From Crocosphaera subtropica ATCC 51142 (lineage in GTDB: Bacteria; Cyanobacteriota; Cyanobacteriia; Cyanobacteriales; Microcystaceae): a DNA stretch of 32,000 nt. Every line of letters begins with the position of its first letter. The first letter of the stretch is position 1. The notes under the pieces were generated by a model. The model was not told the DNA's origin and did not search any database. It worked only from the letters and a program-made list of their open reading frames with translations. Below are positions 18,660-30,894 of the stretch, piece after piece. The stretch is from NCBI RefSeq assembly GCF_000017845.1, contig NC_010546.1, positions 3,030,001-3,062,000 of the forward strand. The letters run 5' to 3'. A program made the position numbers and the translations under genes.

Positions 18660-19517
18660 ATGTTAGGTTTAAAACCTGCTGCTTTAGGTGCAGCGTTTCT
18701 CGGTACGGCAGCGACCATGACTTTAATGGCTGAGTCTGCTCAAGCTGCTTTTATGGGTTTTCAGTCTAATCCAACAGGTCACACTCTTTCTCCAAATGCT
18801 ACGAGTCCTGCTGATGCAACTAAAAAGGATATTCGCCTTGACTCAATAACTAAAGATGGAAAAACTTTCACCGATTTCCTTTACGTTACTGGTGCTACGA
18901 TTATTCAAAATACTACATCCCTTGGACCAGGAAGTTCCGATCATGGAGATTTAACAGTTGGTGATGACTTTTTAACTCAAGGTCCTGCTAAAGAACAACC
19001 TACTGCTGCTGATGTTGTTGCTAGTTTAGGTAACAATAATTTGAACAGTATTATTGATACAGAAGATAGCGGAGGTACATCAATCTTCGATGTTTATTTT
19101 TCTAACCCAACTAATACCTTTGTTTTCTGGGAAAGAGGAAAAAATAGCGATCTTAAAGTCACTGCTATTCTTGCCGGGTCAGCTGGTGATCTTACCCCCA
19201 CTTTAGGTGATACTTTCACTATTACAGATGATCTTTGGACTAATACTGGTATCATGACAACTTTGTCAATTGATACCACAGAAATTACTGGCAGCAATGC
19301 ACCTCAAGAATTAGGAACTTATGGCTTGATGTACGATCAAGCTATTATCGGTCTTCGTTTACAAGGAGCCCCAGGCCTTAGCGGTCCTGATTACAAAGTT
19401 GTTGGTGTGGTTCCTGAACCTCTCACCATTTTAGGTGCGGGTACTGCCGTTGCTTTCGGTGGTGCGTTCAAGCGTAAACTTGGCAAAAAAGACAAAAAAG
19501 GATCTACCAAAGCATAG
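18660..19517 (+). CDS. Secreted PEP-CTERM sorting-domain protein
   Basis: 285 aa with an N-terminal signal peptide (AAFLGTAATMTLMAESAQA). The C-terminus VPEPLTILGAGTAVAFGGAFKRKLGKKDKK is a PEP motif, a TM helix and a basic tail. Confidence 0.85.
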   Translation: MLGLKPAALGAAFLGTAATMTLMAESAQAAFMGFQSNPTGHTLSPNATSPADATKKDIRLDSITKDGKTFTDFLYVTGATIIQNTTSLGPGSSDHGDLTVGDDFLTQGPAKEQPTAADVVASLGNNNLNSIIDTEDSGGTSIFDVYFSNPTNTFVFWERGKNSDLKVTAILAGSAGDLTPTLGDTFTITDDLWTNTGIMTTLSIDTTEITGSNAPQELGTYGLMYDQAIIGLRLQGAPGLSGPDYKVVGVVPEPLTILGAGTAVAFGGAFKRKLGKKDKKGSTKA

Positions 19518-20371: not shown

Positions 20372-20992
20372 TTAATATTGTACAGGTAGGGGGTCAAGAC
20401 TACGCCATAAATACCATGTTGCTACAGTGCGATAGGGTTTCCAAGGTTGTGAAAGTTCTTTAATTTGCTCTTTTGTTAAAAGATTTGTATTCCCGTAATG
20501 ACGTTGAATTGCATTAATTAATCCGAGATCAGCCATAGGAAAAATATCCTTTCGATGTAAATGAAAAATTAAAAACATTTGAGCCGTCCATGAACCAATT
20601 CCTTTAATGGACGTTAACTGTTTTGTAATTTCTTGATCACTCATAGTTTCCCAACTTTGAGGGGTTAAAATACCTTCTTCAAAAGCTTGGGCAACATTAC
20701 GAATATAGAGTATTTTTTGACGTGATAAACCACACTGACGTAAGGATAATTCGTCTATTTCTAAATAATTGTTGATACTAATCGAACCTAGTAAATTTTC
20801 TACTTTTCGACTAATAGAATGAGCAGCAGCTACAGAAATTTGTTGCCCAATAATAGCCTTCATTAAAGTTAAAAATGGATTATAATAGTTAAGCATTGTT
20901 TCAGAGGGATAGGAAGCTATTAACTCAGCTAGAATAGGGTCTTTTAGGGTTAAATATTCTTTAGCTTCGTGCCAATACTTAGGAGAATTCAT
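20372..20992 (-). CDS. DNA-3-methyladenine glycosylase II-like (HhH-GPD superfamily, AlkA-type core)
   Basis: 206 aa with the helix-hairpin-helix IKGIGSWTAQMFLIF and a downstream FPMADLGL with the catalytic-Asp context. It lacks the AlkA N-terminal domain. Confidence 0.75.
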   Translation of the reverse strand: MNSPKYWHEAKEYLTLKDPILAELIASYPSETMLNYYNPFLTLMKAIIGQQISVAAAHSISRKVENLLGSISINNYLEIDELSLRQCGLSRQKILYIRNVAQAFEEGILTPQSWETMSDQEITKQLTSIKGIGSWTAQMFLIFHLHRKDIFPMADLGLINAIQRHYGNTNLLTKEQIKELSQPWKPYRTVATWYLWRSLDPLPVQY

Positions 20993-21085: not shown

Positions 21086-22663
21086 TTATCTCACTGTAAA
21101 TTTACAACTATCGGCCCCCGTTGCTTTACAACTAATTTCCTCCACAGTTAACCTTGGTAAGTTGGGGATTGAACTTAATAAACCCTGAATCATACCGCGC
21201 AGAAAATAACAGCTAGGGCGATCACTGGTTTTGTAGAGACAAAAGGGATTAGCATGAACGTTCAGTTCATTGTTCTGACTATCAGCAATCATAAAATAAG
21301 AAATCGCAGGAACCACTAATTTATTAAGGGCAGAAACCATATTTTTGGCTGAAACTGCTTTAATTTTACCTTGTTTGACTAACCTTTCCCCTACATATTC
21401 CCCTAATGCCAACATCTGTTGATCATTAATATCTGGGTTGTTGTCCATATCTCGTACAGTAGCAACAAAATCAGGATAAAGGTTAATTAATTCTTGTCCC
21501 ATCTCCAGTAATCTCTTGTCAAGACGTGAGTTCGGTGTTAGGAGTTCGGAGGTCGGAGTTAGAATTTTTTGAACGAGGGAATCAGGGTTTGAGACTTCTT
21601 GTTGGTTGTCAGTTTTCCCTAGATTCTCTTCCGTCGAACTCAGGTTATTCATAAGTAGCGGAGAACTGACTGATTCTAATAGGGAAACCTCTGAAGTTTC
21701 GAGTTGGGTTTGTAATTTTTTGACAGTGCGTCCAATTTCTGCTTCTAGCAGTCCGGTTAATACTTTCCCTGTTTTGATTAATAAATAACTGTCTGGTGTG
21801 CAGTAAGCTAAGATTAAATGCCCTTGTTGACTCTTTAGAGCAATCGTTTCAATCTCTTGCCAGTCCAATTCATCTTGAGTCGTTTGAGCAACATAAAGCA
21901 TGGTTCCTGATAGAATTGAAGTGGTTTCTTCATCCATTCCCATCGGAGTTATTATGGATTTTCCTTCCTGAGAAACTAGAGCAAGGCCTTGAATATCAAG
22001 GGGCTTCATTAATAAATCGTGGAGAATAGTCTCAATAGTTAGAGGATTCATAAGTATTCCCTGATTAACGTCTGAAGATGGGGGTAAAACAGTTAAGGTT
22101 TGGTCAGGATATTGATAATTGAAAGCTGGTTCATTGGCTAGTTTAAAGTTTAAATCCTTAGGAATATATTGACTGATTAATTTACGTCGTTTTAAGGCTT
22201 GTTCTGTTTGTTTTTCAATTTTTTTAGGAATTTCAACCCCTAAACGATCGGACTCATAATCACAATGCTTAGGAATGGTTAGACTCTCTATGTCATAGGT
22301 AGGAGCATTCCGATTAATGTCTAGGATAGGGCCTGATTTTAAACAATTCCAGATGATATCTAACTGAGAAAAAGTCAGTTTTCCAAAGACCAAATAACAG
22401 ATAAAATAAGGAATATTGGTGCGACCGAAATCGTCACTCTCATCATTATACAGCCAACCAAAAAAAGTTTCTTCGAGGGATTTTTGTTGTAGATAAGCGG
22501 CTCGATATCTAGGCTCAGGGGGATTATAACTATTCCAATATCGTTCAACAATGTTTTTAACAAAAAATTGCTGATGTTCCGAAGAAATCAAGGAACTGGA
22601 TAGAATGGTAAAGCCAATGTTAGAAAAACTTGTATAAAAAATTTGTTCGACTGATAAATTCAT
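21086..22663 (-). CDS. Multidomain cytosolic protein: unknown N-terminal domain + Roadblock/LC7 (MglB-like) domain + low-complexity linker + V4R domain
   Basis: 525 aa. The N-terminal domain (aa 1-~115) reads EQIFYTSFSNIGF...YWNSYNPPEPRYRAAYL...FGWLYND..D.FGR.NIPYFICY. The segment aa ~203-318 (IQGLALVSQEGKSIITPMGMDEETTSILSGTMLYVAQ...GHLILAYCTPDSYLLIKTGKVLTGLLEAEIGRTVKKL) has the Roadblock/LC7 pattern. The segment aa ~385-525 ends in CYFLRGMIQGLL...VEEISCKATGADSCKFTV, a V4R-type Cys pattern. Confidence 0.65.
   Translation of the reverse strand: MNLSVEQIFYTSFSNIGFTILSSSLISSEHQQFFVKNIVERYWNSYNPPEPRYRAAYLQQKSLEETFFGWLYNDESDDFGRTNIPYFICYLVFGKLTFSQLDIIWNCLKSGPILDINRNAPTYDIESLTIPKHCDYESDRLGVEIPKKIEKQTEQALKRRKLISQYIPKDLNFKLANEPAFNYQYPDQTLTVLPPSSDVNQGILMNPLTIETILHDLLMKPLDIQGLALVSQEGKSIITPMGMDEETTSILSGTMLYVAQTTQDELDWQEIETIALKSQQGHLILAYCTPDSYLLIKTGKVLTGLLEAEIGRTVKKLQTQLETSEVSLLESVSSPLLMNNLSSTEENLGKTDNQQEVSNPDSLVQKILTPTSELLTPNSRLDKRLLEMGQELINLYPDFVATVRDMDNNPDINDQQMLALGEYVGERLVKQGKIKAVSAKNMVSALNKLVVPAISYFMIADSQNNELNVHANPFCLYKTSDRPSCYFLRGMIQGLLSSIPNLPRLTVEEISCKATGADSCKFTVR
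21528..21562. repeat. Heptamer tandem array (GRGTTMG)5 embedded in frame within a CDS
   Basis: The array reads gagttcg gtgttag gagttcg gaggtcg gagttag. On the coding (minus) strand it yields the 7-aa periodic peptide LTPTSEL/LTPNSRL (aa 368-381). It is the same repeat family as 18455-18503 and 28491-28518. Confidence 0.85.
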
Positions 22664-22903
22664 AAAAAATCGTCAACTGTTGAAAATAATCTAAAGGGGT
22701 TTTTCAGCTTATAACACTAGATAAGCGTTGTTAAGTCGATACTTATCATTGATAATTTTTAAGCAGAGACAAAGAATATTATTTTACTATGATAGTATGT
22801 TGATTATGGGAAAAGATCAGTCATTAGGCGATCGCTCTAGATACCTAATGATATTGTTTCCCTTGAGTTAAACTTCGTCACATTGGTTCCTTAACGATTA
22901 GTT

Positions 22904-22969
22904 TTAGCATTATTGAAGCTTTATCCCAGCGTTAAAGCCATTAATTTTATATTTTTATTAGCATTATTG
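22904..22969. promoter_or_regulatory. Pair of perfect 12-bp direct repeats in a 543-bp divergent intergenic region
   Basis: TTAGCATTATTG occurs at 22904-22915 and 22958-22969, a 54-nt centre-to-centre spacing (about 5 helical turns). Both lie between the divergent 21086-22663 and 23207-24625 genes. There is also an 8-bp inverted repeat TCATTAGG/CCTAATGA (22821-28 / 22844-51) around a HIP1 site. Confidence 0.35.
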
Positions 22970-23206
22970 TTCCCTATTTCCTAACTTAATAACATCTAGA
23001 AAAATGAGGTGAATTGGTAAGTATTCAGCGATCAGCCATCACTTTAAAGCTAACGTAAATTAATCTTGAGAAATTTGAGAGAATTGAAAGTGCAGGAAAA
23101 AGCCGATTAGCTTACTTTATGTGTTTATCATCAAAATTGACTGAGATTAAACGAATGCTGACGTTAGTTATAAGCTTATTGCTATTTTTATCTTTACTTA
23201 ATCAAT

Positions 23207-24625
23207 ATGTCCCAAAGAAAATTTATCAAAATTTTGATTCTCTTCTTGTGTGGATTAATCCTATTTAGTGCCATAGGATTAGTTATATTATGGCTTCAAA
23301 ATACCCAGAGAAATAACGATTTTCAAACTAACACTAACTCAATTTTTCCTAGGGTTGCAAACATTGAAATCAGTCAAGGTCAAAAGGTTTTAATCAGAGA
23401 AGAAAGTGCAGAAACTAAACTAGCTGCAGCCCAAGATATGGCAGCAGAGAACTATCAAATGGCTATGGATAAATTAACCCAATCTCTACAAACCTATCCC
23501 AATGATCCAGAAGCTTTAATTTATCTCAATAATGCACAAATTGGTAATAATAAATCCTATAGCATAGCTGTGGCTGCTCCTATTGCCACTAACACCAACG
23601 GAGCAAAAGAAATTCTTCGGGGAGTGGCTCAAGCACAACAAGAAATTAATCAAGCAGGAGGGATCAAAGGTATCCCTTTAAAAGTTGTGATTGCCAATGA
23701 TCATAATAGTCCTGAAATCGCCAAAAAACTAGCTCAGGAACTGGCTAATGATGCCGATATTTTAGGGGTTATTGGCCATTGGAGTAGTGATGTTACTTTA
23801 GCCTCAGCCGAAATTTATCAATCAGAACAATTAGTGGTTATTTCTCCGGTGAGTACCTCAGTAGAATTATCATCTTTTGGTGATTATATCTTTAGAACTG
23901 TTCCGAGCGATCGCTTTGCCGGTAGTGCGCTTTCTCGTTATATGGTGAATCAATTAGGCAGAAAAAAAGCAGCAATTTTTTTCAATTCACAAAGTAATTA
24001 TAGTCAATCTTTGAAAGATGAATTTACCAAAAGTTTATTTAGCGATGGTGGGGAAATTGTTGGAGAATTTGATTTATCTCAAAAGAATTTTGACCCCAAT
24101 AATGATTGGCAACAAGCCAAAAATCAAGGGGCTGAAGTATTAATGTTAGCCTTAACTACCGATACTATAGAAGAGGCGTTAGCCGTGATTAAAATTAATA
24201 AGAAAGAATTATTTTTATTAGGGGGTGATGATGGCTATAATACAGAACTTTTACAACGAGGTGCAGGGAATGCTGTGGGCATGGTTTTAGCCATTCCTTG
24301 GCATATTTCAGCCCATAATAATGACCCTTTTGTTGGGGTTGCCAAAAGACTCTGGGGAGGGGAAATTAGCTGGCGTACTGCCCTAGCTTATGATGCTACC
24401 CTAGCCTTGATTAATGGGTTAGGGGAAACCCCAAACCCCACCCGTCAAAGTTTGCAAGCAACTTTATCCAAACCCAATTTTTCCTTTCAAGGAGCCTCCG
24501 GTTCTGTCAATTTTTTGCCTTCAGGCGATCGTAATCAAGCGGTTCAATTAGTAAGGGTTAAAGCAAATAATCTGGCTGAATTTGGTTATGAATTCCATAT
24601 TTTTCCCTCTTTAAACAGCAATTAA
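23207..24625 (+). CDS. Membrane-anchored type-I periplasmic binding protein (Leu/Ile/Val-binding-protein-like) with an N-terminal TPR-like helix pair
   Basis: 472 aa with an N-terminal TM (ILILFLCGLILFSAIGLVILWL) and a TPR-like segment AAENYQMAMDKLTQSLQTYPNDPEALIYLNNAQI. This is followed by a LivK/Peripla_BP_6-like core (IAVAAPI...GAKEILRGVAQAQQEINQAGGIKGIPLKVVIANDHNSPE...VIGHWSSDVT...ISPVSTS). Confidence 0.75.
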   Translation: MSQRKFIKILILFLCGLILFSAIGLVILWLQNTQRNNDFQTNTNSIFPRVANIEISQGQKVLIREESAETKLAAAQDMAAENYQMAMDKLTQSLQTYPNDPEALIYLNNAQIGNNKSYSIAVAAPIATNTNGAKEILRGVAQAQQEINQAGGIKGIPLKVVIANDHNSPEIAKKLAQELANDADILGVIGHWSSDVTLASAEIYQSEQLVVISPVSTSVELSSFGDYIFRTVPSDRFAGSALSRYMVNQLGRKKAAIFFNSQSNYSQSLKDEFTKSLFSDGGEIVGEFDLSQKNFDPNNDWQQAKNQGAEVLMLALTTDTIEEALAVIKINKKELFLLGGDDGYNTELLQRGAGNAVGMVLAIPWHISAHNNDPFVGVAKRLWGGEISWRTALAYDATLALINGLGETPNPTRQSLQATLSKPNFSFQGASGSVNFLPSGDRNQAVQLVRVKANNLAEFGYEFHIFPSLNSN

Positions 24626-24793
24626 AATATTGTTATCTAAATAGGATGTCAAAAAAAGAGTTTAATGCTAGAATCATTAGAATTTAAAAAATATCTCAAT
24701 TAAGGTTCTACTTAAGTTACGAGCTTAACCATCTCTATAAATCTGGCAAAAAGGTGGGATTTACTCTATTTCATTTTGAATCTTTTGAATATA

Positions 24794-27049
24794 ATGTCTT
24801 CTAAACCAACATTATCTAGTATTTTAAACTCTAGTCCTCGTTCTTATTCTTCTCCTGCTGACAATTCATCTTGTCCTTATGTGGGTCTAAAATCCTTTGA
24901 AAATAGTGATCGTCATTATTTCTTTGGTCGAGAGACGTTAAGTCAACAACTCTTCAATAATCTTCAAGCGCATAATTTTTTAGCCCTTGTTGGGCCTTTG
25001 GGAGTTGGCAAATCATCGTTAGTACAAGCGGGCGTATTACCCTATTTCTCTTCTTCTCAGGAATGGGAGATTAAAGTCATAAAACCTAGGGAACACCCTC
25101 TAAAAAGTCTGGCCATGACTTTTCTGGATAGTCATTTGCCGACCTTACAAAAAGCTCAACAAATGGCAGATTTTCAACTTTGTTTAGAACAAGGTGCTGA
25201 GGGGTTTTCTCATTTACTACAGAGACTTTCTCGTCCTAAGTTACTCCTCGTTATTGATAATTTTGAAGAAATTTTTACTCTTAGTCAAAATGCTCAAGAA
25301 AGGTGGCAATTTTTAACTGCTTTACTCACTGCGTTAGATCAACATCCTCATCAATTGAAGATTATTACTATAATTAATGAGGAATTTATCAGTTATTGTC
25401 TTGAACAAAAACCCAAAAAACTAGGACAAAAAATTAAAGAAAATTGTATCCTTATTTCTCCTTTAAACGATCAAGAACGCTATGATGCTATCGTTTTACC
25501 AGCGCAACAAGCCAATTTAGAATTAGAATCTCAATTAGTTGAACAGTTACTGCAAGATACTCATCATTTAAAAGGAGGTCTTGCTTTACTTCAATATACC
25601 CTTTGGCAAGTTTGTCGCCTACGCAAAAATGTTAGATTAACTTTAGCTAGTTATGTACAGTTAGGAGAAGTTAAACACGTTTTAGATAAACAAGGGACTG
25701 AAACTTTTTATCAATTAAATAGAAGACAGCGAAACACAGCTAAAAAACTATTGTTAAGTCTGATTCATACCCGTGAAGGCATAGGGCATATTAGTAATTT
25801 AGTTCCACAAAGAAAATTAGAAAATTTACATGATTTCGACTATGTTTTGCAAAAGTTCAAGCAAGTAGGTTTTATTCAAACTGAAGTAGGCAATGACCTA
25901 ACTAACCAAGAAATTTTTTTGCGACTTTCTCACCCTATTGTGATCGAACATTGGAGGTTATTACAAGAGTGGTTAGGGCAACGTCAATCTATTTTTAGAC
26001 AACACCAAAATCTTGAAGCGTTTGCTCAAAGATGGCAAATTTCTAAGAGAGATAAGAAGTATTTATTGACAAGTAAAAAACTAAAAATTGCCCAAGCTTT
26101 AGAAAAACACCAAATAGGGTTTTCACCCTTAACGCAAGAATATATCCAGCAAAGTTCTAAAAAACAATCACGAAATATCCTTGTATATGGAATTTTACCC
26201 CTGACCCTTATTCTTGTTTTGGGTGGGTTGACTTATCGACATTGGCAAATTCAAAAAGCATGGCAAACCCTTGAACTGGCAGAAAATAATCCCTATGATA
26301 TTCGTCGTAAAGATGCTATCGAAAAACTCAATTTTTGGCAGATTAATTTTGAGGAAGTTCCTTTAACTTCTACTTATCTTAAAAATATTAATCTTCCGCA
26401 AGCTAATCTCAGCAATATGGATTTTTCTGGCACTAACTTTGAAAATGCCAATTTAGTGAAATCTGATCTGACCAATAGTAATTTCAAGAATGCTAACTTA
26501 ACGAATAGTCGTCTAATTAAGTCCAATTTATCCCAAAGTAATTTAGAGTTAACTAATTTAACTCAAGGGGATTTAACGGAGGCGAATTTATTTCAAACTA
26601 ACCTGACATTTGCTGCTTTAAATTTTGCTAATTTATCATCGGCTAATTTATCACAGTCTCGTCTCTATTTTGCTAACCTAGAAGATGCAAACCTCTTGAA
26701 AAGTAAGATCAGTCGTAGTAATCTTTCCGGTGCTAATTTAGCTTTTAGTAATCTCATGTTTGCTGATCTTTCTAATTCTAATTTAGCCTCTGCTAATTTA
26801 GTAGAGGCTAATCTTTTATCAACTAATTTAACGAATAGTAATCTTTTAGGTGCTAATTTAATTGAGGTTAAAAACCTTGATCCAAATAACTTAAAGCAAG
26901 CTTGTTTTTGGCAGTATGCTATCTATAAAGGAAAATGGAATACTCAGCAACAAGAATGGGAAATTGATGAAATGGCAAATCGACAATTTATTGAAAAATT
27001 AATCCAGGATAAGGCCTCCGATCCAAGAATCCAACCTACCTGTTCATAA
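24794..27049 (+). CDS. STAND-class P-loop NTPase (nSTAND-like) + single TM helix + C-terminal pentapeptide-repeat domain
   Basis: The track ORF starts at a TTG (24776); the first ATG is at 24794. The N-terminal CPYVGLKSFENSDRHYFFGRE motif directly precedes Walker A GPLGVGKSS (nt 24992-25018). The Walker B-like motif is LLLVIDNFEEIF. A helical/winged-helix-like region follows, then a TM helix ILVYGILPLTLILVLGGLTY (~26176-26238) and about 30 A(N/D)LxX pentapeptide units. Confidence 0.75.
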   Translation: MSSKPTLSSILNSSPRSYSSPADNSSCPYVGLKSFENSDRHYFFGRETLSQQLFNNLQAHNFLALVGPLGVGKSSLVQAGVLPYFSSSQEWEIKVIKPREHPLKSLAMTFLDSHLPTLQKAQQMADFQLCLEQGAEGFSHLLQRLSRPKLLLVIDNFEEIFTLSQNAQERWQFLTALLTALDQHPHQLKIITIINEEFISYCLEQKPKKLGQKIKENCILISPLNDQERYDAIVLPAQQANLELESQLVEQLLQDTHHLKGGLALLQYTLWQVCRLRKNVRLTLASYVQLGEVKHVLDKQGTETFYQLNRRQRNTAKKLLLSLIHTREGIGHISNLVPQRKLENLHDFDYVLQKFKQVGFIQTEVGNDLTNQEIFLRLSHPIVIEHWRLLQEWLGQRQSIFRQHQNLEAFAQRWQISKRDKKYLLTSKKLKIAQALEKHQIGFSPLTQEYIQQSSKKQSRNILVYGILPLTLILVLGGLTYRHWQIQKAWQTLELAENNPYDIRRKDAIEKLNFWQINFEEVPLTSTYLKNINLPQANLSNMDFSGTNFENANLVKSDLTNSNFKNANLTNSRLIKSNLSQSNLELTNLTQGDLTEANLFQTNLTFAALNFANLSSANLSQSRLYFANLEDANLLKSKISRSNLSGANLAFSNLMFADLSNSNLASANLVEANLLSTNLTNSNLLGANLIEVKNLDPNNLKQACFWQYAIYKGKWNTQQQEWEIDEMANRQFIEKLIQDKASDPRIQPTCS
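26378..26870 (+). repeat. Pentapeptide-repeat coding array (15-nt periodicity) inside the STAND NTPase gene
   Basis: The translation reads ...ANLSNMDFSGTNFENANLVKSDLTNSNFKNANLTNSRLIKSNLSQSNLELTNLTQGDLTEANLFQTNL... Recurrent gctaattta / aatcta DNA words appear every 15 nt. The array is in frame, so it is not a CRISPR or a non-coding repeat. Confidence 0.9.
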
Positions 27050-27128
27050 TCATTTCTTGTCCTTACATATAAGTTTTTTAGTTTGATATTTTATTCTAAT
27101 CAAAATATAGTTAAATTACTTTTAACCT

Positions 27129-28472
27129 ATGAATTTTTTATCATCCTCCTCTGAATATCCTCATTTTAATCTTCTGAGTATTGGCCAGCGTGGTGTAGGA
27201 AAAACCGTATTTTTAGCTGGTAGCTACGCAGAAATGAATCAAGTTTCTGCTGATGAAAATCACCAAAAAATTTGGTTTGAATGTGAGAACGAAGAGGATA
27301 AAAAAACCCTCAATTCTATTTTAGACTATGTGAAACGAACTGGCGAATATCCGCCACCAACGTTAAAAATGACCAATTTTGATTTTATTTTAAAACAAAA
27401 AAATCATAAAAAAGCAAAAACACTATGTGATTTTAGTTGGTCTGATATTCCAGGAGAATATTGTGATTTTAATCACCCTGATTTTCAAGACCTGGTGCTT
27501 TCTTCTCATAGTTGTTGTGTCTTTATTAATGGGGAAAAATTGGTCAAAGATCCTACCTATATCGATGAATTAGAAGGATTAGTTAAACAAGTAATGGCCA
27601 TTGCTATTTTAATCGATCAAAAAGCCATAGATTATAGATTTGCTTTGATTATTACTCAATGCGATCGCTTGGCTTCAGGGTCTATGACACGTTTACAAAT
27701 TGAAGAGAATTTACAATTTTTGACCACCCGTCTAGAAGCAGCAGATGCAAACTATCAACGGTTTTATTCAGGAATTCCTATCGTTTCTAACGATAAAGGA
27801 CATTATTTTCAAGTGAAAGGTTCAGCCGCAGCTTTTCTTTGGATTGTCTCAGAATTACAAAAAGGAACCTCGTTATCCCGTCATAATAACTCCTTAGAAG
27901 GGTCGTTAAAAGTTGATATTTCTGCGTTACAATATTGGCTATCTACTTCGCCAAAAATCCTCTGGCCAGTAGTGGGAATTGTGGGTGGTTTATTTGGCTT
28001 AATGGCGGTGGGAATATTGGTACTCAATCAATTGTCACAACCAAACAATGATAATCGAGTAGCCCAACAATTGACTCAACAACTAGAACAAACCATACGC
28101 AACGATCCCAATGACACCGAAAGCAAATTAACGTTAGTGAATCAGTATCTTAATCAAGAAAAAGTCGACCAAGCCATTGATCTTCTTAAGACAATTGTTG
28201 AGCAGGAACCTGATAATTTAGAACGGAAACTTCAGTTAGCTAATTTGTATGAAATCACAGGAAATATACAGCAAGCAGAATCCGTCTACGATAGAATTTT
28301 AGCAGAAAATTCTAGTTATTTTAATGCCCTATTTGGTAAAGCTTTAATCCGTCATAAACAAGGCGATCGCACCACAGCTAAAACCTTATTACAAGAAGCT
28401 GAAAAAAATGCACCTTCAGACGATTTAAGAAGCAAAACGAAGGCAGCTTTAAAACAACTGAATCTAGAATAA
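27129..28472 (+). CDS. Ras-like (TRAFAC-type) GTPase domain + single TM helix + C-terminal TPR repeats
   Basis: 447 aa. The motifs are G1 GQRGVGKT (aa 19-26, nt 27183-27206), a switch-I Thr candidate (PPPTLKMT), G3 DIPGE (aa 106-110) and a G4-like TQCD (aa 176-179). A TM helix ILWPVVGIVGGLFGLMAVGILVL (~27958-28026) follows, then 3-4 TPR-like repeats (aa ~310-447). Confidence 0.65.
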   Translation: MNFLSSSSEYPHFNLLSIGQRGVGKTVFLAGSYAEMNQVSADENHQKIWFECENEEDKKTLNSILDYVKRTGEYPPPTLKMTNFDFILKQKNHKKAKTLCDFSWSDIPGEYCDFNHPDFQDLVLSSHSCCVFINGEKLVKDPTYIDELEGLVKQVMAIAILIDQKAIDYRFALIITQCDRLASGSMTRLQIEENLQFLTTRLEAADANYQRFYSGIPIVSNDKGHYFQVKGSAAAFLWIVSELQKGTSLSRHNNSLEGSLKVDISALQYWLSTSPKILWPVVGIVGGLFGLMAVGILVLNQLSQPNNDNRVAQQLTQQLEQTIRNDPNDTESKLTLVNQYLNQEKVDQAIDLLKTIVEQEPDNLERKLQLANLYEITGNIQQAESVYDRILAENSSYFNALFGKALIRHKQGDRTTAKTLLQEAEKNAPSDDLRSKTKAALKQLNLE

Positions 28473-28490
28473 AAACTTGATAAATAACCT

Positions 28491-28518
28491 GAGTTCGGAG
28501 TTAGGAGTTTAAGGTAAG
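28491..28518. repeat. Heptamer tandem array (GAGTTNG-like), about 4 units
   Basis: The array reads gagttcg gagttag gagttta aggtaag, starting 19 nt after the GTPase gene stop. It has the same orientation and family as the array inside the CDS at 21528-21562. Confidence 0.8.
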
Positions 28519-28673: not shown

Positions 28674-29027
28674 ATGTTTTTAGATGAAGTTAGTTTTCTT
28701 GATATTTTCCTTGAAGGATTAAAAGTCCTGGGAATGATTTTTTTACTGCTAACCTTAGTGGATGCAGCCGAGAAATATCCCTCCTTAGCAGGTAGTCGAT
28801 GGAATCTTATTATTCTTGGGTTTGTCTTGATGTTAGTTGGCTTTGCTTTTGATTGGTCTGATGAGTTTATTAATTATGAAGCTTCTTCTTTATTAAATAT
28901 TATTGAGGTTGTAATTGAAGAAGTGGGATTAATTGGTGGACTTTTTTTAGTCACATTTGGATTTAAAAGTTGGTTTAGGTTTATGAGTCGTTTCTTAGGA
29001 ATCTCATCGGCTAATCGTGACAGGTAG
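28674..29027 (+). CDS. Small integral membrane protein, hypothetical
   Basis: 117 aa with 3-4 hydrophobic helices (VLGMIFLLLTLV, LIILGFVLMLVGFAF, VGLIGGLFLVTFGF). No recognisable motif. Confidence 0.45.
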   Translation: MFLDEVSFLDIFLEGLKVLGMIFLLLTLVDAAEKYPSLAGSRWNLIILGFVLMLVGFAFDWSDEFINYEASSLLNIIEVVIEEVGLIGGLFLVTFGFKSWFRFMSRFLGISSANRDR

Positions 29028-29196: not shown

Positions 29197-30894
29197 ATGA
29201 CCCTTTCTAAAAAACTATCAAATCTGATTGCCTCATCGATTATTCTTGGTTCATTTTTCATGTTTTCCCAATCTGCACAGGGGATGAAACTCTCTTTGAA
29301 TCTTTTGGGGACCCATGAAACCGGCATTTTTGATGAAGGTTCAGCAGAAATTCCAGCCTACGATCCCCTTAGTGGTAGAGTGTTTGTCGTCAATGGATTT
29401 GCCAATGAACTAACGGTTTTGGATATTAATAATCCGAGAAATCCTATTGCTTTATCTCCCATTAGTTTAACGGGAGGAGGGGTTAATAGTGTAGCGGTGA
29501 AAAATGGTGTTGTGGCCGTAGCAGAACAAGCAACCATCAAAACCGATCCAGGAATGGTGTCCTTTTATAACACCGATGGACTCTTTTTAAACAGTGTTAT
29601 GGTGGGCGCTTTACCGGATATGTTGGACTTTACTCCAGATGGTAGCAAAATTTTAGTGGCCAACGAAGGAGAACCGAACGATGATTATACAATCGATCCA
29701 GAAGGTTCGGTCAGTATTATTGATATTAGTGGTGGCATTGGTTCTCTGAGTCAATCTAATGTCATTACAGCAGGTTTCCAAGCATTTAATAATAGTCGTC
29801 AGCAATTAATTGATGCAGGGGTTCGTATTTTTGGCCCCGATGCCGACAATCTTACTGATCCTGATGCTATTGCTACTGTAGCGCGAGACTTAGAACCCGA
29901 ATACATTGCCATTTCAGAGGACTCAACCACTGCTTGGGTAGCGTTACAAGAAAACAATGCCTTAGGGGTTTTAGACATCAACAGTGGAACCTTTACCAAT
30001 ATTATTCCCCTTGGGTTTAAGGATTATTCTTTAGACGGTAATTCCTTGGATGCCAGTAACGAAGATGGAACCATTAATCTTCAAACCTATGATAATCTTT
30101 TCGGGATGTATCAACCCGATGCGATCGCTACTTACACCGTCAATGGTCAAACCTATATTGTGACGGCCAATGAAGGAGACTCAAGGGATTACGATGGATT
30201 TAGTGAAGAGGCCAGAGTTGCAGATGTTGTCCTCGATCCAGATGCTTTTCCTAATGCAACTGAACTTCAACAAGACTCAGTTTTAGGTCGTTTAAATATT
30301 ACCACCACGTTAGGTGATATAGATAACGACGGAGACTTTGATGAACTCTATTCCTATGGGGCCCGTTCTTTTAGCATTTGGGATGATGAGGGTAACTTAG
30401 TTTTCGATAGTGGTAATCAATTTGAGGTTCTCTTAGCTCAACTTTTACCTGAATATTTTAATGCCAGTAATGATAACAATACCTTTGATAATCGTAGTGA
30501 CGATAAAGGACCCGAACCCGAAGCCGTTACCATCGGGAGGATAGGTGATCAAATCTATGCCTTTATTGGCTTAGAACGGATTGGCGGGATCATGATTTAT
30601 AACATCACCGATCCTGAGAATCCTTCTTTTGTGAACTATACCAATAATAGAAACTTTACTGAGGATGTCATGACTTCTGCGGCCGGAGATTTAGGGCCTG
30701 AAGGGGTCGTCTTTATTAATCCCGAAGACAGTCCCACCAATTCACCTTTATTAGTCGTTGCCAACGAAATTAGTGGAACAACCAGTGTTTATGGGATTTC
30801 TAAAGTCCCTGAACCCAATGCTATTTTAGGATTAATGACAGTAGGTTTGATGGGAAGTTTCCGACTGTTGAAACACCGCAAAAAATCTAATTAG
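29197..30894 (+). CDS. Secreted beta-propeller protein of the 'choice-of-anchor I' type (phosphatase/phytase-like) with a PEP-CTERM anchor
   Basis: 565 aa with a signal peptide (ILGSFFMFSQSAQG). Motifs LEPEYIAISEDSTTAWVALQENNALGVLD, YQPDAIA, ANEGDSRDY and GPEPEAV fit this family. The C-terminus VPEPNAILGLMTVGLMGSFRLLKHRKKSN is a PEP-CTERM sorting signal. Confidence 0.7.
   Translation: MTLSKKLSNLIASSIILGSFFMFSQSAQGMKLSLNLLGTHETGIFDEGSAEIPAYDPLSGRVFVVNGFANELTVLDINNPRNPIALSPISLTGGGVNSVAVKNGVVAVAEQATIKTDPGMVSFYNTDGLFLNSVMVGALPDMLDFTPDGSKILVANEGEPNDDYTIDPEGSVSIIDISGGIGSLSQSNVITAGFQAFNNSRQQLIDAGVRIFGPDADNLTDPDAIATVARDLEPEYIAISEDSTTAWVALQENNALGVLDINSGTFTNIIPLGFKDYSLDGNSLDASNEDGTINLQTYDNLFGMYQPDAIATYTVNGQTYIVTANEGDSRDYDGFSEEARVADVVLDPDAFPNATELQQDSVLGRLNITTTLGDIDNDGDFDELYSYGARSFSIWDDEGNLVFDSGNQFEVLLAQLLPEYFNASNDNNTFDNRSDDKGPEPEAVTIGRIGDQIYAFIGLERIGGIMIYNITDPENPSFVNYTNNRNFTEDVMTSAAGDLGPEGVVFINPEDSPTNSPLLVVANEISGTTSVYGISKVPEPNAILGLMTVGLMGSFRLLKHRKKSN

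What the first reader, a model, noticed from the sequence alone, without database searches (positions are those of the whole stretch)
21086..28472. Divergent four-gene cluster combining a Roadblock/V4R protein with three single-pass membrane proteins (PBP sensor, STAND NTPase-pentapeptide, GTPase-TPR): candidate uncharacterised transmembrane GTPase/STAND system
Seen in sequence: one cytosolic protein (21086-22663, minus strand) carries an unknown N-terminal domain, a Roadblock/LC7 domain and a V4R domain. It faces, across a 543-bp intergenic region, three co-directional genes whose products each have exactly one predicted TM helix. These are a TPR plus type-I periplasmic-binding protein (23207-24625), a STAND-type P-loop NTPase-TM-pentapeptide repeat protein (24794-27049), and a Ras-like GTPase-TM-TPR protein (27129-28472). 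From the position of each TM helix, both NTPase domains would be cytoplasmic. The PBP, pentapeptide and TPR modules would all be extracytoplasmic, where they could assemble into one sensory complex. Established knowledge: Roadblock/LC7 proteins are dedicated partners (GAP/GEF-like) of small GTPases in MglA/MglB, in the actinobacterial conservons (CvnB/CvnD) and in Rag/Ragulator. STAND NTPases with the PYxGLxxF..FFGRE-Walker A N-terminus are usually fused to WD40/TPR sensors and feature in NTP-dependent conflict and signalling systems. V4R domains are small-molecule-binding modules. Inference: this is a ligand-gated, two-NTPase switch system with a soluble Roadblock regulator. I see no nuclease, protease, TIR or pore-forming effector, so signalling or cell-envelope regulation is at least as likely as phage defence. 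The neighbourhood is accessory-like (brnTA, PEP-CTERM gene). Same-orientation heptamer arrays sit at 21528 and 28491, roughly bracketing the cluster. I know of no characterised system with this composition.
Basis: partly seen in the sequence, partly recalled or inferred. Interest (0 to 1): 0.85.

Follow-up and report, generated by a model that had tools for sequence, protein, structure and literature searches.

The report
Cyanobacterial membrane GTPase with longin-like partner
Two of the four genes (a membrane-anchored GTPase and the protein carrying the "unknown" N-terminal domain) form a gene pair conserved across cyanobacteria and apparently undescribed; the partner domain is predicted to fold like the longin platforms that regulate small GTPases in eukaryotes, whereas the STAND ATPase gene is a recent lineage-specific insertion.

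Summary
The window is Crocosphaera subtropica ATCC 51142 (gene D = cce_3014). All four ORFs and nearly all domain calls hold: V4R, Roadblock (family-level), Peripla_BP_6, nSTAND1 + pentapeptide, TPR, one TM helix each in B, C and D, and a TRAFAC GTPase fold in D (a divergent DO-GTPase2).

The system is not the one proposed. In 80 cyanobacterial loci found through D's GTPase domain, the constant neighbour (about 55 loci) is A's unannotated N-terminal domain ("A_N", about 165 aa). It is usually encoded just downstream, and its divergence tracks D's (Mantel r 0.78). A_N has no Pfam or PDB sequence relative, and only 183 of 1.84 billion representative proteins match it. Its model (pLDDT 93) has longin topology, and its only credible fold hits, none significant, are entries of longin-type Rag regulators plus TagF.

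A_N carries interchangeable C-terminal modules: TM-WD40, TM-PBP_like_2, Roadblock, or Roadblock+V4R (Crocosphaera only). B is linked only in Crocosphaera, and other binding proteins or an ammonium transporter take its place in related genera. C occurs only in the three closest relatives of this strain.

Best reading: a periplasmic-ligand-gated GTPase switch for signalling. Defence is less likely.

The parts
22154..22663 (-). Gene A, residues 1-170: 'A_N' domain, the conserved partner of the GTPase. New family with a predicted longin-like fold.
   Evidence: Adjacent to D-type GTPase genes in about 55 of 80 loci. No Pfam hit in 20 members and no PDB sequence hit. 183 hits among 1.84e9 representative proteins, N-terminal or near it in the 150 listed. 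AF2 pLDDT 93.2 with bbabbba topology. Foldseek hits with probability >=0.5: TagF and chains of FLCN-FNIP2 and GATOR1 complex entries.
21704..22054 (-). Gene A, residues about 204-320: Roadblock/LC7 domain.
   Evidence: phmmer against the PDB hits only Roadblock proteins. Family profile against the PDB: 7f8m 1.2e-10, 9jue 1.1e-8, CvnB5 2.4e-5. 18 of 18 members match Robl_LC7.
21092..21268 (-). Gene A, residues 466-524: V4R domain (core matched by Pfam).
   Evidence: PF02830, E 1.4e-11, 44.7 bits against a cut-off of 31. Among A_N proteins it is found only in the Crocosphaera loci.
22664..23206 (.). 543-bp divergent intergenic region between A and B; presumed promoters for both.
   Evidence: sequence. 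No Rfam match. Promoter-like hexamers are not above shuffle expectation.
23207..24625 (+). Gene B: N-terminal TM or signal anchor (residues 9-27) plus a type-I periplasmic binding domain of the Leu/Ile/Val-binding type. Candidate periplasmic ligand input.
   Evidence: Peripla_BP_6, E 4e-41. Closest PDB relatives are LIV/amino-acid-binding proteins, 4mlc 2e-22. Linked to D in L003, L005, L006, L007 and L053 only.
24776..27049 (+). Gene C: nSTAND1 NTPase, TM (468-486), pentapeptide repeats. A lineage-specific insertion between B and D; membership of the system is uncertain.
   Evidence: nSTAND1 E 1.2e-85, Pentapeptide E 8e-30. Present only in L005-L007. Absent from L003, L053, L057, L001, L086 and all other loci.
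27129..27866 (+). Gene D, residues 1-246: cytoplasmic TRAFAC GTPase domain, a divergent DO-GTPase2. G1 GQRGVGKT, G3 DIPGE, G4 TQCD.
   Evidence: Invariant motifs. 14 of 15 relatives match DO-GTPase2, best E 2e-7. AF2 pLDDT 86.6. Foldseek: RagD and RagC TM-scores 0.68 and 0.70, plus eEF1A, Arf, Ras, Ran.
27969..28025 (+). Gene D, residues 281-299: single TM helix.
   Evidence: Hydropathy peak 2.62. A TM helix at about residue 270-320 is present in nearly all D homologues.
28041..28448 (+). Gene D, residues about 305-440: extracytoplasmic TPR tail.
   Evidence: TPR_19 E 3e-15 and other TPR families. Present in about half of D homologues.
28674..29027 (+).
   Evidence: Stays next to B or D through rearrangements in L003/L004, L007 and L053, at 74-87% identity. 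No family match.

Best explanation
The core is a two-protein GTPase switch at the cytoplasmic membrane that is conserved across cyanobacteria.

D is a DO-GTPase2-like TRAFAC GTPase. It is held at the inner face of the membrane by one TM helix and here carries a periplasmic TPR tail. A is its cognate partner through the N-terminal A_N domain. [quoted passage not shown]

In most cyanobacteria the A_N protein is itself a single-pass membrane protein with a periplasmic WD40 or PBP_like_2 domain. There, a periplasmic binding event would be passed across the membrane to the A_N/GTPase pair. In Crocosphaera, A_N is soluble and is fused to a Roadblock domain (a second GTPase-platform module) and a V4R small-molecule-binding domain. 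The periplasmic input is supplied in trans by the membrane-anchored Leu/Ile/Val-type binding protein B, and perhaps by D's TPR tail.

The likely function is nutrient, nitrogen or peptide sensing that sets the GTP state of D. The output goes through unidentified effectors encoded elsewhere.

Gene C (nSTAND1-TM-pentapeptide) was inserted into the B-D operon recently and is at most an accessory.

Shown: domain identities, the GTPase fold, deep D-A_N synteny and co-divergence, the modular architectures, and the lineage restriction of B and C.
Inferred: a direct A_N-D interaction, GAP/GEF activity, topology, the ligand, and the output.
For: - Synteny: A_N lies next to the D GTPase in about 55 of 80 loci spanning Nostocales, Chroococcidiopsidales, Leptolyngbyaceae, Acaryochloris, Thermosynechococcaceae, Pseudanabaenaceae and Chroococcales. 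Intergenic gaps are often 0-40 bp or overlapping.
- Linkage survives four gene orders in Crocosphaera and Gloeothece.
- D and A_N distance matrices correlate: Mantel r 0.78, against a maximum of 0.30 in 2,000 permutations. Paralogous pairs within one genome are deeply diverged in both proteins.
- D: invariant G1/G3/G4 motifs, including the DxxGE glutamate described for DO-GTPases (PMC7159879). 14 of 15 relatives match DO-GTPase2. GTPase fold.
- A_N: pLDDT 93, longin element order (topology definition from PMC3747258). All Foldseek hits with probability >=0.5 are TagF or chains of FLCN-FNIP2 and GATOR1 complex entries.
- Roadblock confirmed; V4R confirmed.
- Periplasmic sensor-type modules recur. 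A_N-TM-WD40 occurs about 24 times and A_N-TM-PBP_like_2 about 11 times. A separate PBP_like_2 gene lies next to D in L001, L067 and L086, and B lies next to D in Crocosphaera.
- B is of the LIV-binding type and no ABC permease genes are adjacent.
- No effector and no PADLOC hit.
- An Amt gene lies divergently next to D in about 12 loci plus the two Gloeothece genomes.
Against: - The longin assignment is not statistically secure: best Foldseek E is 0.009, TM-score normalised to the query is about 0.33, no sequence-profile link exists, and it rests on a predicted structure.
- The identities of the matched complex chains (FNIP2, NPRL2) come from my own knowledge, not from the tool output.
- No D-A_N fusion protein was seen among the listed A_N hits.
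- No physical-interaction model could be run.
- About 25 of 80 D loci have no A_N within 10 kb, including D's closest non-Crocosphaera relatives (L008-L022). At least one A_N gene has no D nearby (L085).
- In the window itself A is divergently transcribed and separated from D by B and C.
- No output component is identified.
- The Mantel correlation is partly explained by shared species phylogeny.
- D's relationship to the conflict-associated DO-GTPases leaves a defence role open.
Confidence: 0.5

Rival explanations
1. It is an NTP-dependent conflict (anti-phage or abortive) system of the DO-GTPase type described by Kaur et al. A_N would play the role of GAP1, its variable C-terminal modules would sense an invader, and the STAND NTPase would add a second threshold switch.
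For: - D's family matches DO-GTPase2 and has the Walker-B glutamate.
- The partner is encoded just downstream and carries variable non-enzymatic modules, as described for GAP1.
- Several paralogous pairs occur per genome.
- An nSTAND1 gene was inserted here.
- A brnT/brnA-like toxin-antitoxin pair lies nearby.
Against: - No GAP1-N/M/C, GASH or FNIII partner was found among A, the 20 A_N members or the other neighbours scanned.
- No nuclease, protease, TIR or pore effector was seen in the window or in the recurrent neighbours.
- No PADLOC hit.
- The flanks are housekeeping-like and partly conserved between relatives, including the choice-of-anchor gene.
- The recurrent neighbours are nutrient-related (Amt, binding proteins) or peptide exporters, not effectors.
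- The variable modules would be periplasmic, an odd place to sense phage replication.
Confidence: 0.2
2. One reading: all four genes form one integrated system. The Roadblock domain is the dedicated regulator of the GTPase, the STAND NTPase is a second obligatory switch, and the three extracytoplasmic modules (PBP, pentapeptide, TPR) assemble into one sensory complex.
For: - B, C and D are co-directional with short gaps (150-168 bp and 79 bp) and no intergenic terminator-like hairpin.
- C is retained at 63-80% identity in L005-L007.
- Extracytoplasmic pentapeptide lipoproteins lie directly next to D/A_N pairs in L063, L069 and L072.
- The Roadblock domain is real.
Against: - C is absent from L003, L053, L057, L001, L086 and more than 70 other loci.
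- Most A_N partners of D-type GTPases have no Roadblock domain.
- B is confined to the Crocosphaera loci.
- L063, L069 and L072 look like one orthologous locus, so they count as a single event.
Confidence: 0.15
3. The D/A_N pair belongs to a secreted-peptide circuit, as receptor, immunity factor or export regulator for a double-glycine peptide. The Crocosphaera cluster would be a derived version that has lost the exporter genes.
For: - Five-gene co-directional clusters HlyD > C39-peptidase ABC exporter > ~90-120-aa peptide > D > A_N-TM-WD40 occur in L024, L031-L034, L037, L048 and L060. Partial versions occur in about 10 further loci.
- The peptide has a double-glycine-type leader resembling LSxxEQExhxGG and a conserved core.
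- The layout parallels ComC/ComAB/ComDE-type peptide signalling (my own knowledge).
Against: - The window has no GG peptide, C39 exporter or cluster-adjacent HlyD gene by tblastn.
- D's closest relatives are next to Amt or binding-protein genes instead.
- The association covers only one subclade of the family.
Confidence: 0.1
4. The four genes are neighbours by chance and have unrelated functions.
For: - A is divergently transcribed.
- C is a recent insertion.
- No experimental data were found for cce_3011-3014.
Against: - A-D linkage persists through rearrangements and across cyanobacterial orders.
- Strong co-divergence.
- Start/stop overlaps between D and A_N genes in several genomes.
Confidence: 0.05

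Closest known systems
DO-GTPase / GAP1 'GTPase-centric' systems (Kaur, Burroughs, Iyer, Aravind 2020, eLife; Pfam PF19975, PF19993)
   Same: - A TRAFAC GTPase with a conserved Glu after the Walker-B/G3 motif; 14 of 15 D relatives match DO-GTPase2.
- A constant partner protein encoded immediately downstream that carries variable non-enzymatic modules.
- Frequent TM segments and extracytoplasmic domains.
- GTPase and partner subtypes co-vary.
   Different: - The partner is not GAP1: no GAP1-N1/N2/M/C match.
- No GASH or FNIII third component and no effector domains.
- No paired GTPase paralogues in the locus.
- The lineage is cyanobacterial, which is not listed for either GAP1 subtype in the passages read.
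- The window protein itself scores below the Pfam cut-off.
- The neighbours are Amt, binding proteins or peptide exporters.
MglA/MglB and the actinobacterial conservon (CvnA-D)
   Same: - A small GTPase-fold switch encoded with a Roadblock/LC7-domain protein.
- The A-family Roadblock profile matches CvnB5 (E 2.4e-5) and archaeal or bacterial Roadblock structures.
   Different: - D is not an MglA, Ras or CvnD family member by Pfam, and it is membrane-anchored.
- Roadblock is present in only a minority of partners.
- The constant partner domain is A_N.
- No CvnA histidine kinase or CvnC (DUF742) is present.
Rag GTPases with Ragulator and the longin-domain GAPs (FLCN-FNIP, GATOR1), and TRAPP (longin + Bet3/TRAPPC3 subunits)
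   Same: - D's best small-GTPase fold matches are RagD and RagC.
- A_N's only credible fold matches include chains of FLCN-FNIP2-Rag-Ragulator and GATOR1 complex entries.
- A combines a longin-like domain, Roadblock and V4R; V4R belongs to the TRAPPC3/Bet3 superfamily according to PMC10933270. These are the three fold types of eukaryotic GTPase-regulator platforms.
- There is a plausible link to amino-acid or nitrogen sensing through a LIV-type binding protein and Amt neighbours.
   Different: - No sequence homology is detectable.
- The fold matches for A_N are not significant.
- D lacks the C-terminal Roadblock domain of Rag GTPases and has a TM helix and TPR instead.
- The context is a bacterial inner membrane, not a lysosome.
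- Any evolutionary connection is unproven, and convergence is equally possible.
Asgard archaeal longin / Roadblock / TRAPPC3-V4R proteins (Tran et al. 2024, PMC10933270)
   Same: - A prokaryotic combination of these folds, including a Heimdall longin+TRAPPC3 fusion.
- Rag/Arf-like GTPases.
   Different: - In Asgard archaea the GTPase genes are generally not in operons with these regulators.
- Here the pairing is operonic and bacterial.
- A_N is a distinct sequence family.
nSTAND1 STAND NTPases (Pfam PF20703)
   Same: Gene C matches over the full model (E 1.2e-85) and has intact Walker A and B motifs.
   Different: - C has no N-terminal effector or adaptor domain.
- It has a TM helix and an extracytoplasmic pentapeptide array instead of cytoplasmic WD40 or TPR sensors.
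- It is not part of the conserved module.

Membership tests
DO-GTPase/GAP1 system (Kaur et al. 2020) | The GTPase belongs to the DO-GTPase1/2 family. | tested here: inconclusive
   Window protein: DO-GTPase1 17.1 bits and DO-GTPase2 14.6 bits, against a cut-off of 27. 14 of 15 family members match DO-GTPase2 at E<=1 (best 2e-7), and P0134 passes the cut-off at 27.8 bits. Membership holds at family level by transitivity, not for this sequence alone.
DO-GTPase/GAP1 system (Kaur et al. 2020) | Conserved glutamate in the Walker B motif. | tested here: met
   D106-I-P108-G109-E110; D, P, G and E are invariant in 15 diverse homologues. Feature as described in PMC7159879.
DO-GTPase/GAP1 system (Kaur et al. 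2020) | GAP1 partner (GAP1-N1 or -N2, GAP1-M, GAP1-C) encoded downstream or fused. | tested here: not met
   No GAP1 family hit for A (E<=0.1), for its isolated N-terminal domain (E<=10), or for any of 20 A_N members (E<=10). An unrelated-by-sequence partner, A_N, occupies the same downstream position.
DO-GTPase/GAP1 system (Kaur et al. 2020) | A third component (GASH protein or FNIII-repeat protein) plus variable effectors. | tested here: not met
   None among the window genes or the recurrent neighbours that were scanned with Pfam. Not every neighbour in all 80 loci was scanned.
MglA/MglB-type GTPase-Roadblock pair | Roadblock/LC7 domain in the partner. | tested here: met
   Family profile against the PDB: 7f8m 1.2e-10, 9jue 1.1e-8. 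18 of 18 members match Robl_LC7. A itself is sub-threshold at 16.4 bits against a cut-off of 23.
MglA/MglB-type GTPase-Roadblock pair | The GTPase is of the MglA/Ras-superfamily sequence family. | tested here: not met
   No Ras, MglA, Arf or Roc match above threshold. Only 2 of 15 relatives give weak Roc hits and 1 of 15 a Gtr1_RagA hit.
Conservon (CvnA-D) | CvnA sensor kinase and CvnC (DUF742) encoded with the Roadblock and GTPase genes. | tested here: not met
   No HATPase, HisKA or DUF742 gene in the cluster.
Longin domain (for A_N) | [quoted passage not shown] | tested here: met
   AF2 model at pLDDT 93.2: E3-13, E17-22, H28-42, E53-62, E65-76, E82-93, H98-110, later H147-158. Topology definition from PMC3747258. 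This is a predicted structure, not an experimental one.
Longin domain (for A_N) | Significant structural similarity to solved longin domains. | tested here: inconclusive
   No Foldseek hit at E<=1e-3. Best hits: TagF 9t0n (E 9e-3, prob 0.97), 6ulg_N (E 0.067, prob 0.93), GATOR1 chains 7t3b_B, 7t3a_B and 9o5a_H (prob 0.54-0.66). TM-score normalised to the query 0.31-0.35 over about 100-120 columns. All other hits have prob <=0.2.
Longin domain (for A_N) | Sequence-profile relationship to longin or Roadblock families. | tested here: not met
   No Pfam or PDB profile hit. hhalign of A_N against the family's own Roadblock domains gives probability 0.2%.
Rag/Ragulator-type module | The GTPase carries a C-terminal Roadblock dimerisation domain. 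| tested here: not met
   D has a TM helix and TPR after the GTPase domain. The GTPase fold alone resembles RagC/D, with TM-scores of 0.68-0.70 normalised to the target.
Rag/Ragulator-type module | The longin-domain partner supplies a catalytic arginine (GAP activity). | not testable with these tools
   R81, in the DDxGR loop between beta4 and beta5, is invariant in alignment A2 and nearly invariant in A4, making it a candidate. This is inference only.
nSTAND1 STAND NTPase (gene C) | Full-length match to PF20703. | tested here: met
   E 1.2e-85, 288.9 bits, model positions 1-378 of 379.
   The four genes occur together only in L005 and L006; L007 has B, C and D but is cut off upstream. A, B and D occur without C in L003 and L053; A and D alone in L057; A and D with other neighbours elsewhere.
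Type-I periplasmic binding protein (gene B) | Match to Peripla_BP_6 or the LIV-binding-protein fold family. | tested here: met
   E 4.3e-41. PDB relatives are LIV/amino-acid-binding proteins, best 2e-22.

The most novel reading that the evidence does not exclude
A is a bacterial single-chain counterpart of the eukaryotic and Asgard GTPase-regulator platforms. It would combine a true longin-fold domain (A_N), a Roadblock domain and a V4R/TRAPPC3-superfamily domain, acting as GAP or GEF for a membrane-anchored Rag/Arf-like GTPase. The switch would be gated by periplasmic amino-acid, ammonium or peptide sensing. If so, cyanobacteria carry a widespread transmembrane small-GTPase signalling pathway, distinct from two-component and Ser/Thr-kinase signalling. 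Longin-GTPase pairing would then exist, operon-encoded, in Bacteria.
Probability: 0.25. Interest if true: 0.9.

Novelty: new variant of a known kind. Interest (0 to 1): 0.72.

Why it matters
Small GTPases regulated by longin or Roadblock platforms are central to eukaryotic membrane traffic and nutrient sensing. Their prokaryotic antecedents are known mainly from MglA/MglB and, more recently, from Asgard archaea. Levine 2013 stated that prokaryotes have no longin domains. Tran et al. 2024 noted that Asgard GTPase genes are generally not in operons with their candidate regulators, which makes it hard to match a GTPase to its regulator.

Here the pairing is operonic, conserved across a whole bacterial phylum, and present in genetically tractable organisms such as Anabaena/Nostoc relatives, Gloeothece PCC 7424 and Cyanothece 51142. 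That makes "which platform regulates which GTPase, and how" directly testable.

It would also define:
- a new domain family (A_N);
- a new kind of transmembrane signalling in cyanobacteria, with a periplasmic WD40, binding-protein or TPR ectodomain coupled to a cytoplasmic GTPase switch;
- possible links to nitrogen or amino-acid sensing, or to secreted-peptide communication in filamentous forms.

The analysis also corrects the original proposal. The STAND ATPase is not part of the conserved machine, and the key partner domain is the one that had been left unnamed.

Tried and rejected
- **Pfam, NCBIfam and PADLOC on A's N-terminal domain:** nothing found. A profile search of the PDB gave only a chance UvrB fragment.
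- **hhalign of A_N against the family's Roadblock domains:** no relationship. A_N is therefore not a detectable Roadblock duplicate.
- **GTPase profile against PDB sequences:** only insignificant Rab32/38 hits. The fold search was needed.
- **Heptamer arrays as cluster boundaries:** rejected.
- **Known regulatory RNA in the 543-bp intergenic region or elsewhere in the cluster:** none. Promoter and terminator scans were at background level.
- **GG-peptide, C39-exporter or Amt genes in the window:** absent next to the cluster.
- **Literature on cce_3011-3014:** none found. Surveys of prokaryotic Ras-like GTPases (PMC4316618), DENN/longin evolution (PMC3521125) and cyanobacterial bacteriocin clusters (PMC3140520) turned up no mention of this pair in the passages returned by my term searches.
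- **TagF:** the TagF structure paper does not describe the fold as longin, only as alpha+beta. The TagF hit is therefore not independent support for 'longin'.
- **Pfam summary of 92 full-length A_N proteins:** swamped by WD40 families. It was replaced by my own clustering.
- **First attempt with 100 sequences:** exceeded the residue limit.

Full report
**1. Source and observation.**
Gene D is 100% identical to cce_3014 of Crocosphaera subtropica (Cyanothece) ATCC 51142. The four ORFs are at the stated coordinates.

Pfam confirms V4R in A (E 1.4e-11) and Peripla_BP_6 in B (E 4e-41). It confirms nSTAND1 (E 1e-85) plus pentapeptide repeats in C, and TPR in D. Hydropathy gives one TM helix each in B (residues 9-27), C (468-486) and D (281-299), and none in A.

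Two of the calls needed more work.

- **Roadblock.** It is sub-threshold in A itself (E 0.0075-0.055). However, phmmer against the PDB hits only two chains, both Roadblock proteins. A profile of 18 orthologous middle domains hits 7f8m (1.2e-10), 9jue (1.1e-8), CvnB5 (2.4e-5) and dynein LC7. All 18 members match Robl_LC7.
- **GTPase.** D's N-terminal domain has no family above threshold. The family does conserve G1 GQRGVGKT, G3 DIPGE and G4 T(Q/K)CD. Of 15 relatives, 14 match Pfam DO-GTPase2, with a best E of 2e-7. An AlphaFold model (pLDDT 86.6) gives 514 Foldseek PDB hits at E<=1e-3. Every hit in the displayed top 50 is a TRAFAC-type GTPase. The best small-GTPase matches are RagD and RagC, with target-normalised TM-scores of 0.68 and 0.70.

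The "TPR" in B is one weak motif. The heptamer arrays are real but trivial: one lies inside A's coding sequence, and similar heptamers occur elsewhere in the window.

**2. Synteny: what is actually conserved.**
I scanned one genome per species in GTDB with a profile of D's GTPase domain. This returned 80 loci, most titled as cyanobacteria; several are labelled only 'uncultured bacterium' and one carries a 'Candidatus Gracilibacteria' label. I then searched them with each domain from the window.

| Component | Distribution among the loci |
|---|---|
| A's N-terminal ~165 aa ("A_N") | Next to the GTPase in about 55 of 80 loci |
| Roadblock | About 12 loci by tblastn |
| V4R | Crocosphaera loci only |
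| B | Crocosphaera loci only (L003, L005, L006, L007, L053) |
| C | Only the three closest relatives (L005-L007) |

The loci that carry it span Nostocales, Chroococcidiopsidales, Leptolyngbyaceae, Acaryochloris, Thermosynechococcaceae, Pseudanabaenaceae and Chroococcales. It is usually encoded immediately downstream on the same strand. Gaps are often under 40 bp, and some pairs have overlapping stop and start codons.

In L003 and L053, B and D are directly adjacent, so C is an insertion into the B-D operon.

A and D stay linked through several gene orders:
- window, L005, L006: A< B> C> D>
- L003: A> <D <B
- L053: B> D> A>
- L057: D> A>
- Gloeothece PCC 7424 and PCC 7822: A> Amt< D> PBP_like_2>

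Pairwise divergence of D and of the adjacent A_N correlates strongly. Mantel r is 0.78, and the maximum over 2,000 permutations is 0.30. Paralogous pairs within one genome are deeply split in both proteins.

A 117-aa three-TM gene (28674-29027) also travels with B and D in Crocosphaera.

**3. The A_N domain.**
None of 20 diverse members matches any Pfam family, and a profile search of the PDB finds nothing. An exhaustive HMM search of 1.84 billion representative proteins finds only 183 members. Of these, 178 have E<=1e-10. In the 150 hits listed, the domain starts at residue 1 or within a few dozen residues of the N-terminus. The family is therefore small and sharply bounded.

AlphaFold predicts the domain confidently (pLDDT 93.2). 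[quoted passage not shown] This is the longin topology as defined by Levine 2013 (PMC3747258).

Foldseek against the PDB gives no significant match; the best E is 0.009. The only hits with a probability of 0.5 or more are these:
- T6SS TagF (0.97);
- chain N of the FLCN-FNIP2-Rag-Ragulator complex (0.93);
- chains of three GATOR1 complex entries (0.54-0.66).

Every other hit is at 0.2 or below. From my own knowledge, the complex chains are the longin-bearing subunits FNIP2 and NPRL2; the tool output does not name them. The TagF authors describe its N-domain only as alpha+beta.

hhalign finds no relationship between A_N and the family's own Roadblock domain. I therefore treat "longin-like" as the best-supported fold assignment, but not as proven.

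**4. Modularity.**
A_N carries interchangeable C-terminal modules. Among 185 family members:

| C-terminal architecture | Count |
|---|---|
| Roadblock, no TM (11 also with V4R) | 39 |
| TM + WD40 | about 24 |
| TM + PBP_like_2 | about 11 |
| TM + unclassified or truncated tail | about 60 |

D always has its TM helix at about residue 270-320, with or without a TPR tail.

The general design is therefore two proteins whose N-terminal domains (GTPase and A_N) face the cytoplasm. Their C-terminal repeat or binding domains would be periplasmic. The Crocosphaera and Gloeothece branch instead has a soluble A_N-Roadblock(-V4R) protein plus a separately encoded binding protein. In Crocosphaera this is B, a LIV-type protein whose best PDB relative scores 2e-22. 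In Gloeothece and L067 it is a PBP_like_2 protein.

**5. Recurrent neighbours.**
Three contexts recur.

- **Peptide export.** HlyD > C39-peptidase ABC exporter > a conserved ~90-120-aa peptide > D > A_N-TM-WD40, in at least 8 loci, with partial versions in about 10 more. The peptide has a double-glycine-type leader.
- **Ammonium transporter.** An Amt gene lies divergently next to D+TPR in about 12 Microcystaceae and Snowella loci and in both Gloeothece genomes. Often no A_N gene lies within 10 kb.
- **Binding protein.** The Crocosphaera arrangement with B.

Pentapeptide lipoproteins flank the pair in L063, L069 and L072, which are probably one orthologous locus. OmpR-type response regulators occur nearby in 7 loci.

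None of the exporter, peptide or Amt genes is present in the window. No effector-type domain was seen in the window or among the recurrent neighbours, and PADLOC finds nothing. The flanks are ordinary chromosomal genes, including glyS, methyltransferase, ABC-F, SBF symporter and dusA-like genes. The choice-of-anchor gene is also a neighbour in L003.

**6. Mechanism.**
The best-supported reading is a membrane-associated GTPase switch. A_N is the cognate regulatory platform of D, and periplasmic modules provide the input. The input module is fused in most taxa. In this window it is supplied in trans by B, and possibly by D's TPR tail.

In this window, A's V4R domain would add a cytoplasmic small-molecule input, and its Roadblock domain a second platform or dimerisation module. 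The LIV-type binding protein and the Amt neighbours in sister genera point to nitrogen or amino-acid status as the signal. The peptide-exporter context in filamentous taxa points to peptide sensing there.

The output is unknown. Direct binding, GAP/GEF activity and the ligand are all inferred.

R81, in the DDxGR loop between beta4 and beta5, is invariant in the 20-sequence alignment A2 and nearly invariant in A4. It is a candidate arginine finger, by inference only.

**7. Comparison with known systems.**
D is a divergent DO-GTPase2 and shares the Walker-B glutamate. It also shares the "partner encoded just downstream" logic of Kaur et al. 2020 (PMC7159879). But GAP1, GASH, FNIII and effector components are absent, so this is not a member of those systems.

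It resembles MglA/MglB and the conservon only in pairing a GTPase with a Roadblock protein.

The combination of a Rag-like fold, a longin-like domain, Roadblock and V4R echoes Rag-Ragulator/GATOR, TRAPP and the Asgard proteins of Tran et al. 2024 (PMC10933270). V4R belongs to the TRAPPC3 superfamily according to that paper. The evidence here is structural resemblance only.

I found no publication on this pair or on cce_3011-3014.

**8. Verdict.**
The A-D partnership, transmembrane GTPase signalling, and signalling rather than defence all stand.
- It is corrected on three points. The conserved partner domain is A_N, not Roadblock. The STAND gene is a recent add-on. B is lineage-specific.
- Novelty: a new variant of a known kind, namely a GTPase plus platform-regulator pair, related on the GTPase side to DO-GTPases. 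It has a new partner domain family and a new transmembrane architecture.

Noticed in passing
L024:9397-9678, L033:9702-9980, L060:9659-9958, L032:9591-9905 and others: A conserved family of ~90-120-aa peptides with a double-glycine-type leader (resembling LSxxEQExhxGG) and a conserved core (FFQQTAIDTFAE...SRTGYSFRQTT). It is encoded between a C39-peptidase ABC exporter and the GTPase gene in filamentous cyanobacteria. It has no Pfam match. It may be a secreted signal sensed by the WD40 ectodomain of the A_N protein.
   Followed up: partly
L008, L010-L012, L014, L017-L020, L022, L067, L001, L086: An ammonium transporter (Amt) gene lies divergently adjacent to the GTPase-TM-TPR gene in Microcystaceae, Snowella and Gloeothece. 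This suggests a link to nitrogen status.
   Followed up: partly
window 28674-29027 (+): A 117-aa protein with three predicted TM helices and no family match. It stays next to B or D through rearrangements in related Crocosphaera loci (L003, L007, L053), so it may be a fifth component.
   Followed up: partly
Not scanned against family libraries here.
   Followed up: no
window 20372-20992 (-): HhH-GPD base-excision glycosylase (AlkA-like; Pfam E 2e-16) immediately downstream of gene A on the same strand.
   Followed up: no
window 18660-19517 (+) and 29197-30894 (+): Two secreted proteins with PEP-CTERM-like C-termini (VPEP...hydrophobic...basic). The second is a choice-of-anchor I protein (E 3.5e-145), and a homologous gene is also a neighbour of A in L003.
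   Followed up: no
window 12566-14536 (-): A 656-aa ORF with no Pfam match at E<=1e-5, lying in the lowest-GC stretch of the window (0.31).
   Followed up: no
window 21528-21560 (inside gene A) and 28491-28509: GAGTT(C/A)G heptamer repeats. The first array encodes the 'LTPTSELLTPNS' linker between the Roadblock and V4R domains, so a short-repeat element appears to have been built into coding sequence.
   Followed up: partly
L063:8511-9737, L069:12067-13299, L072:12894-14111: ~405-aa pentapeptide-repeat proteins with lipoprotein-type signal peptides (…L(S/A)ACSP…), encoded directly beside GTPase/A_N pairs in Leptolyngbya-like genomes. This is a second context in which an extracytoplasmic pentapeptide module accompanies the pair.
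   Followed up: partly
L085:6785-8897: In Brasilonema a 298-aa A_N protein is encoded next to a PBP_like_2 gene, with no D-type GTPase within 8 kb. The A_N-GTPase adjacency is therefore not universal.
   Followed up: partly
L001:3432-5384 and L086:1-804: A large IIGP/dynamin-like GTPase gene and a Wza/Wzz polysaccharide-export pair lie a few kb upstream of the A gene in both Gloeothece genomes.
   Followed up: no
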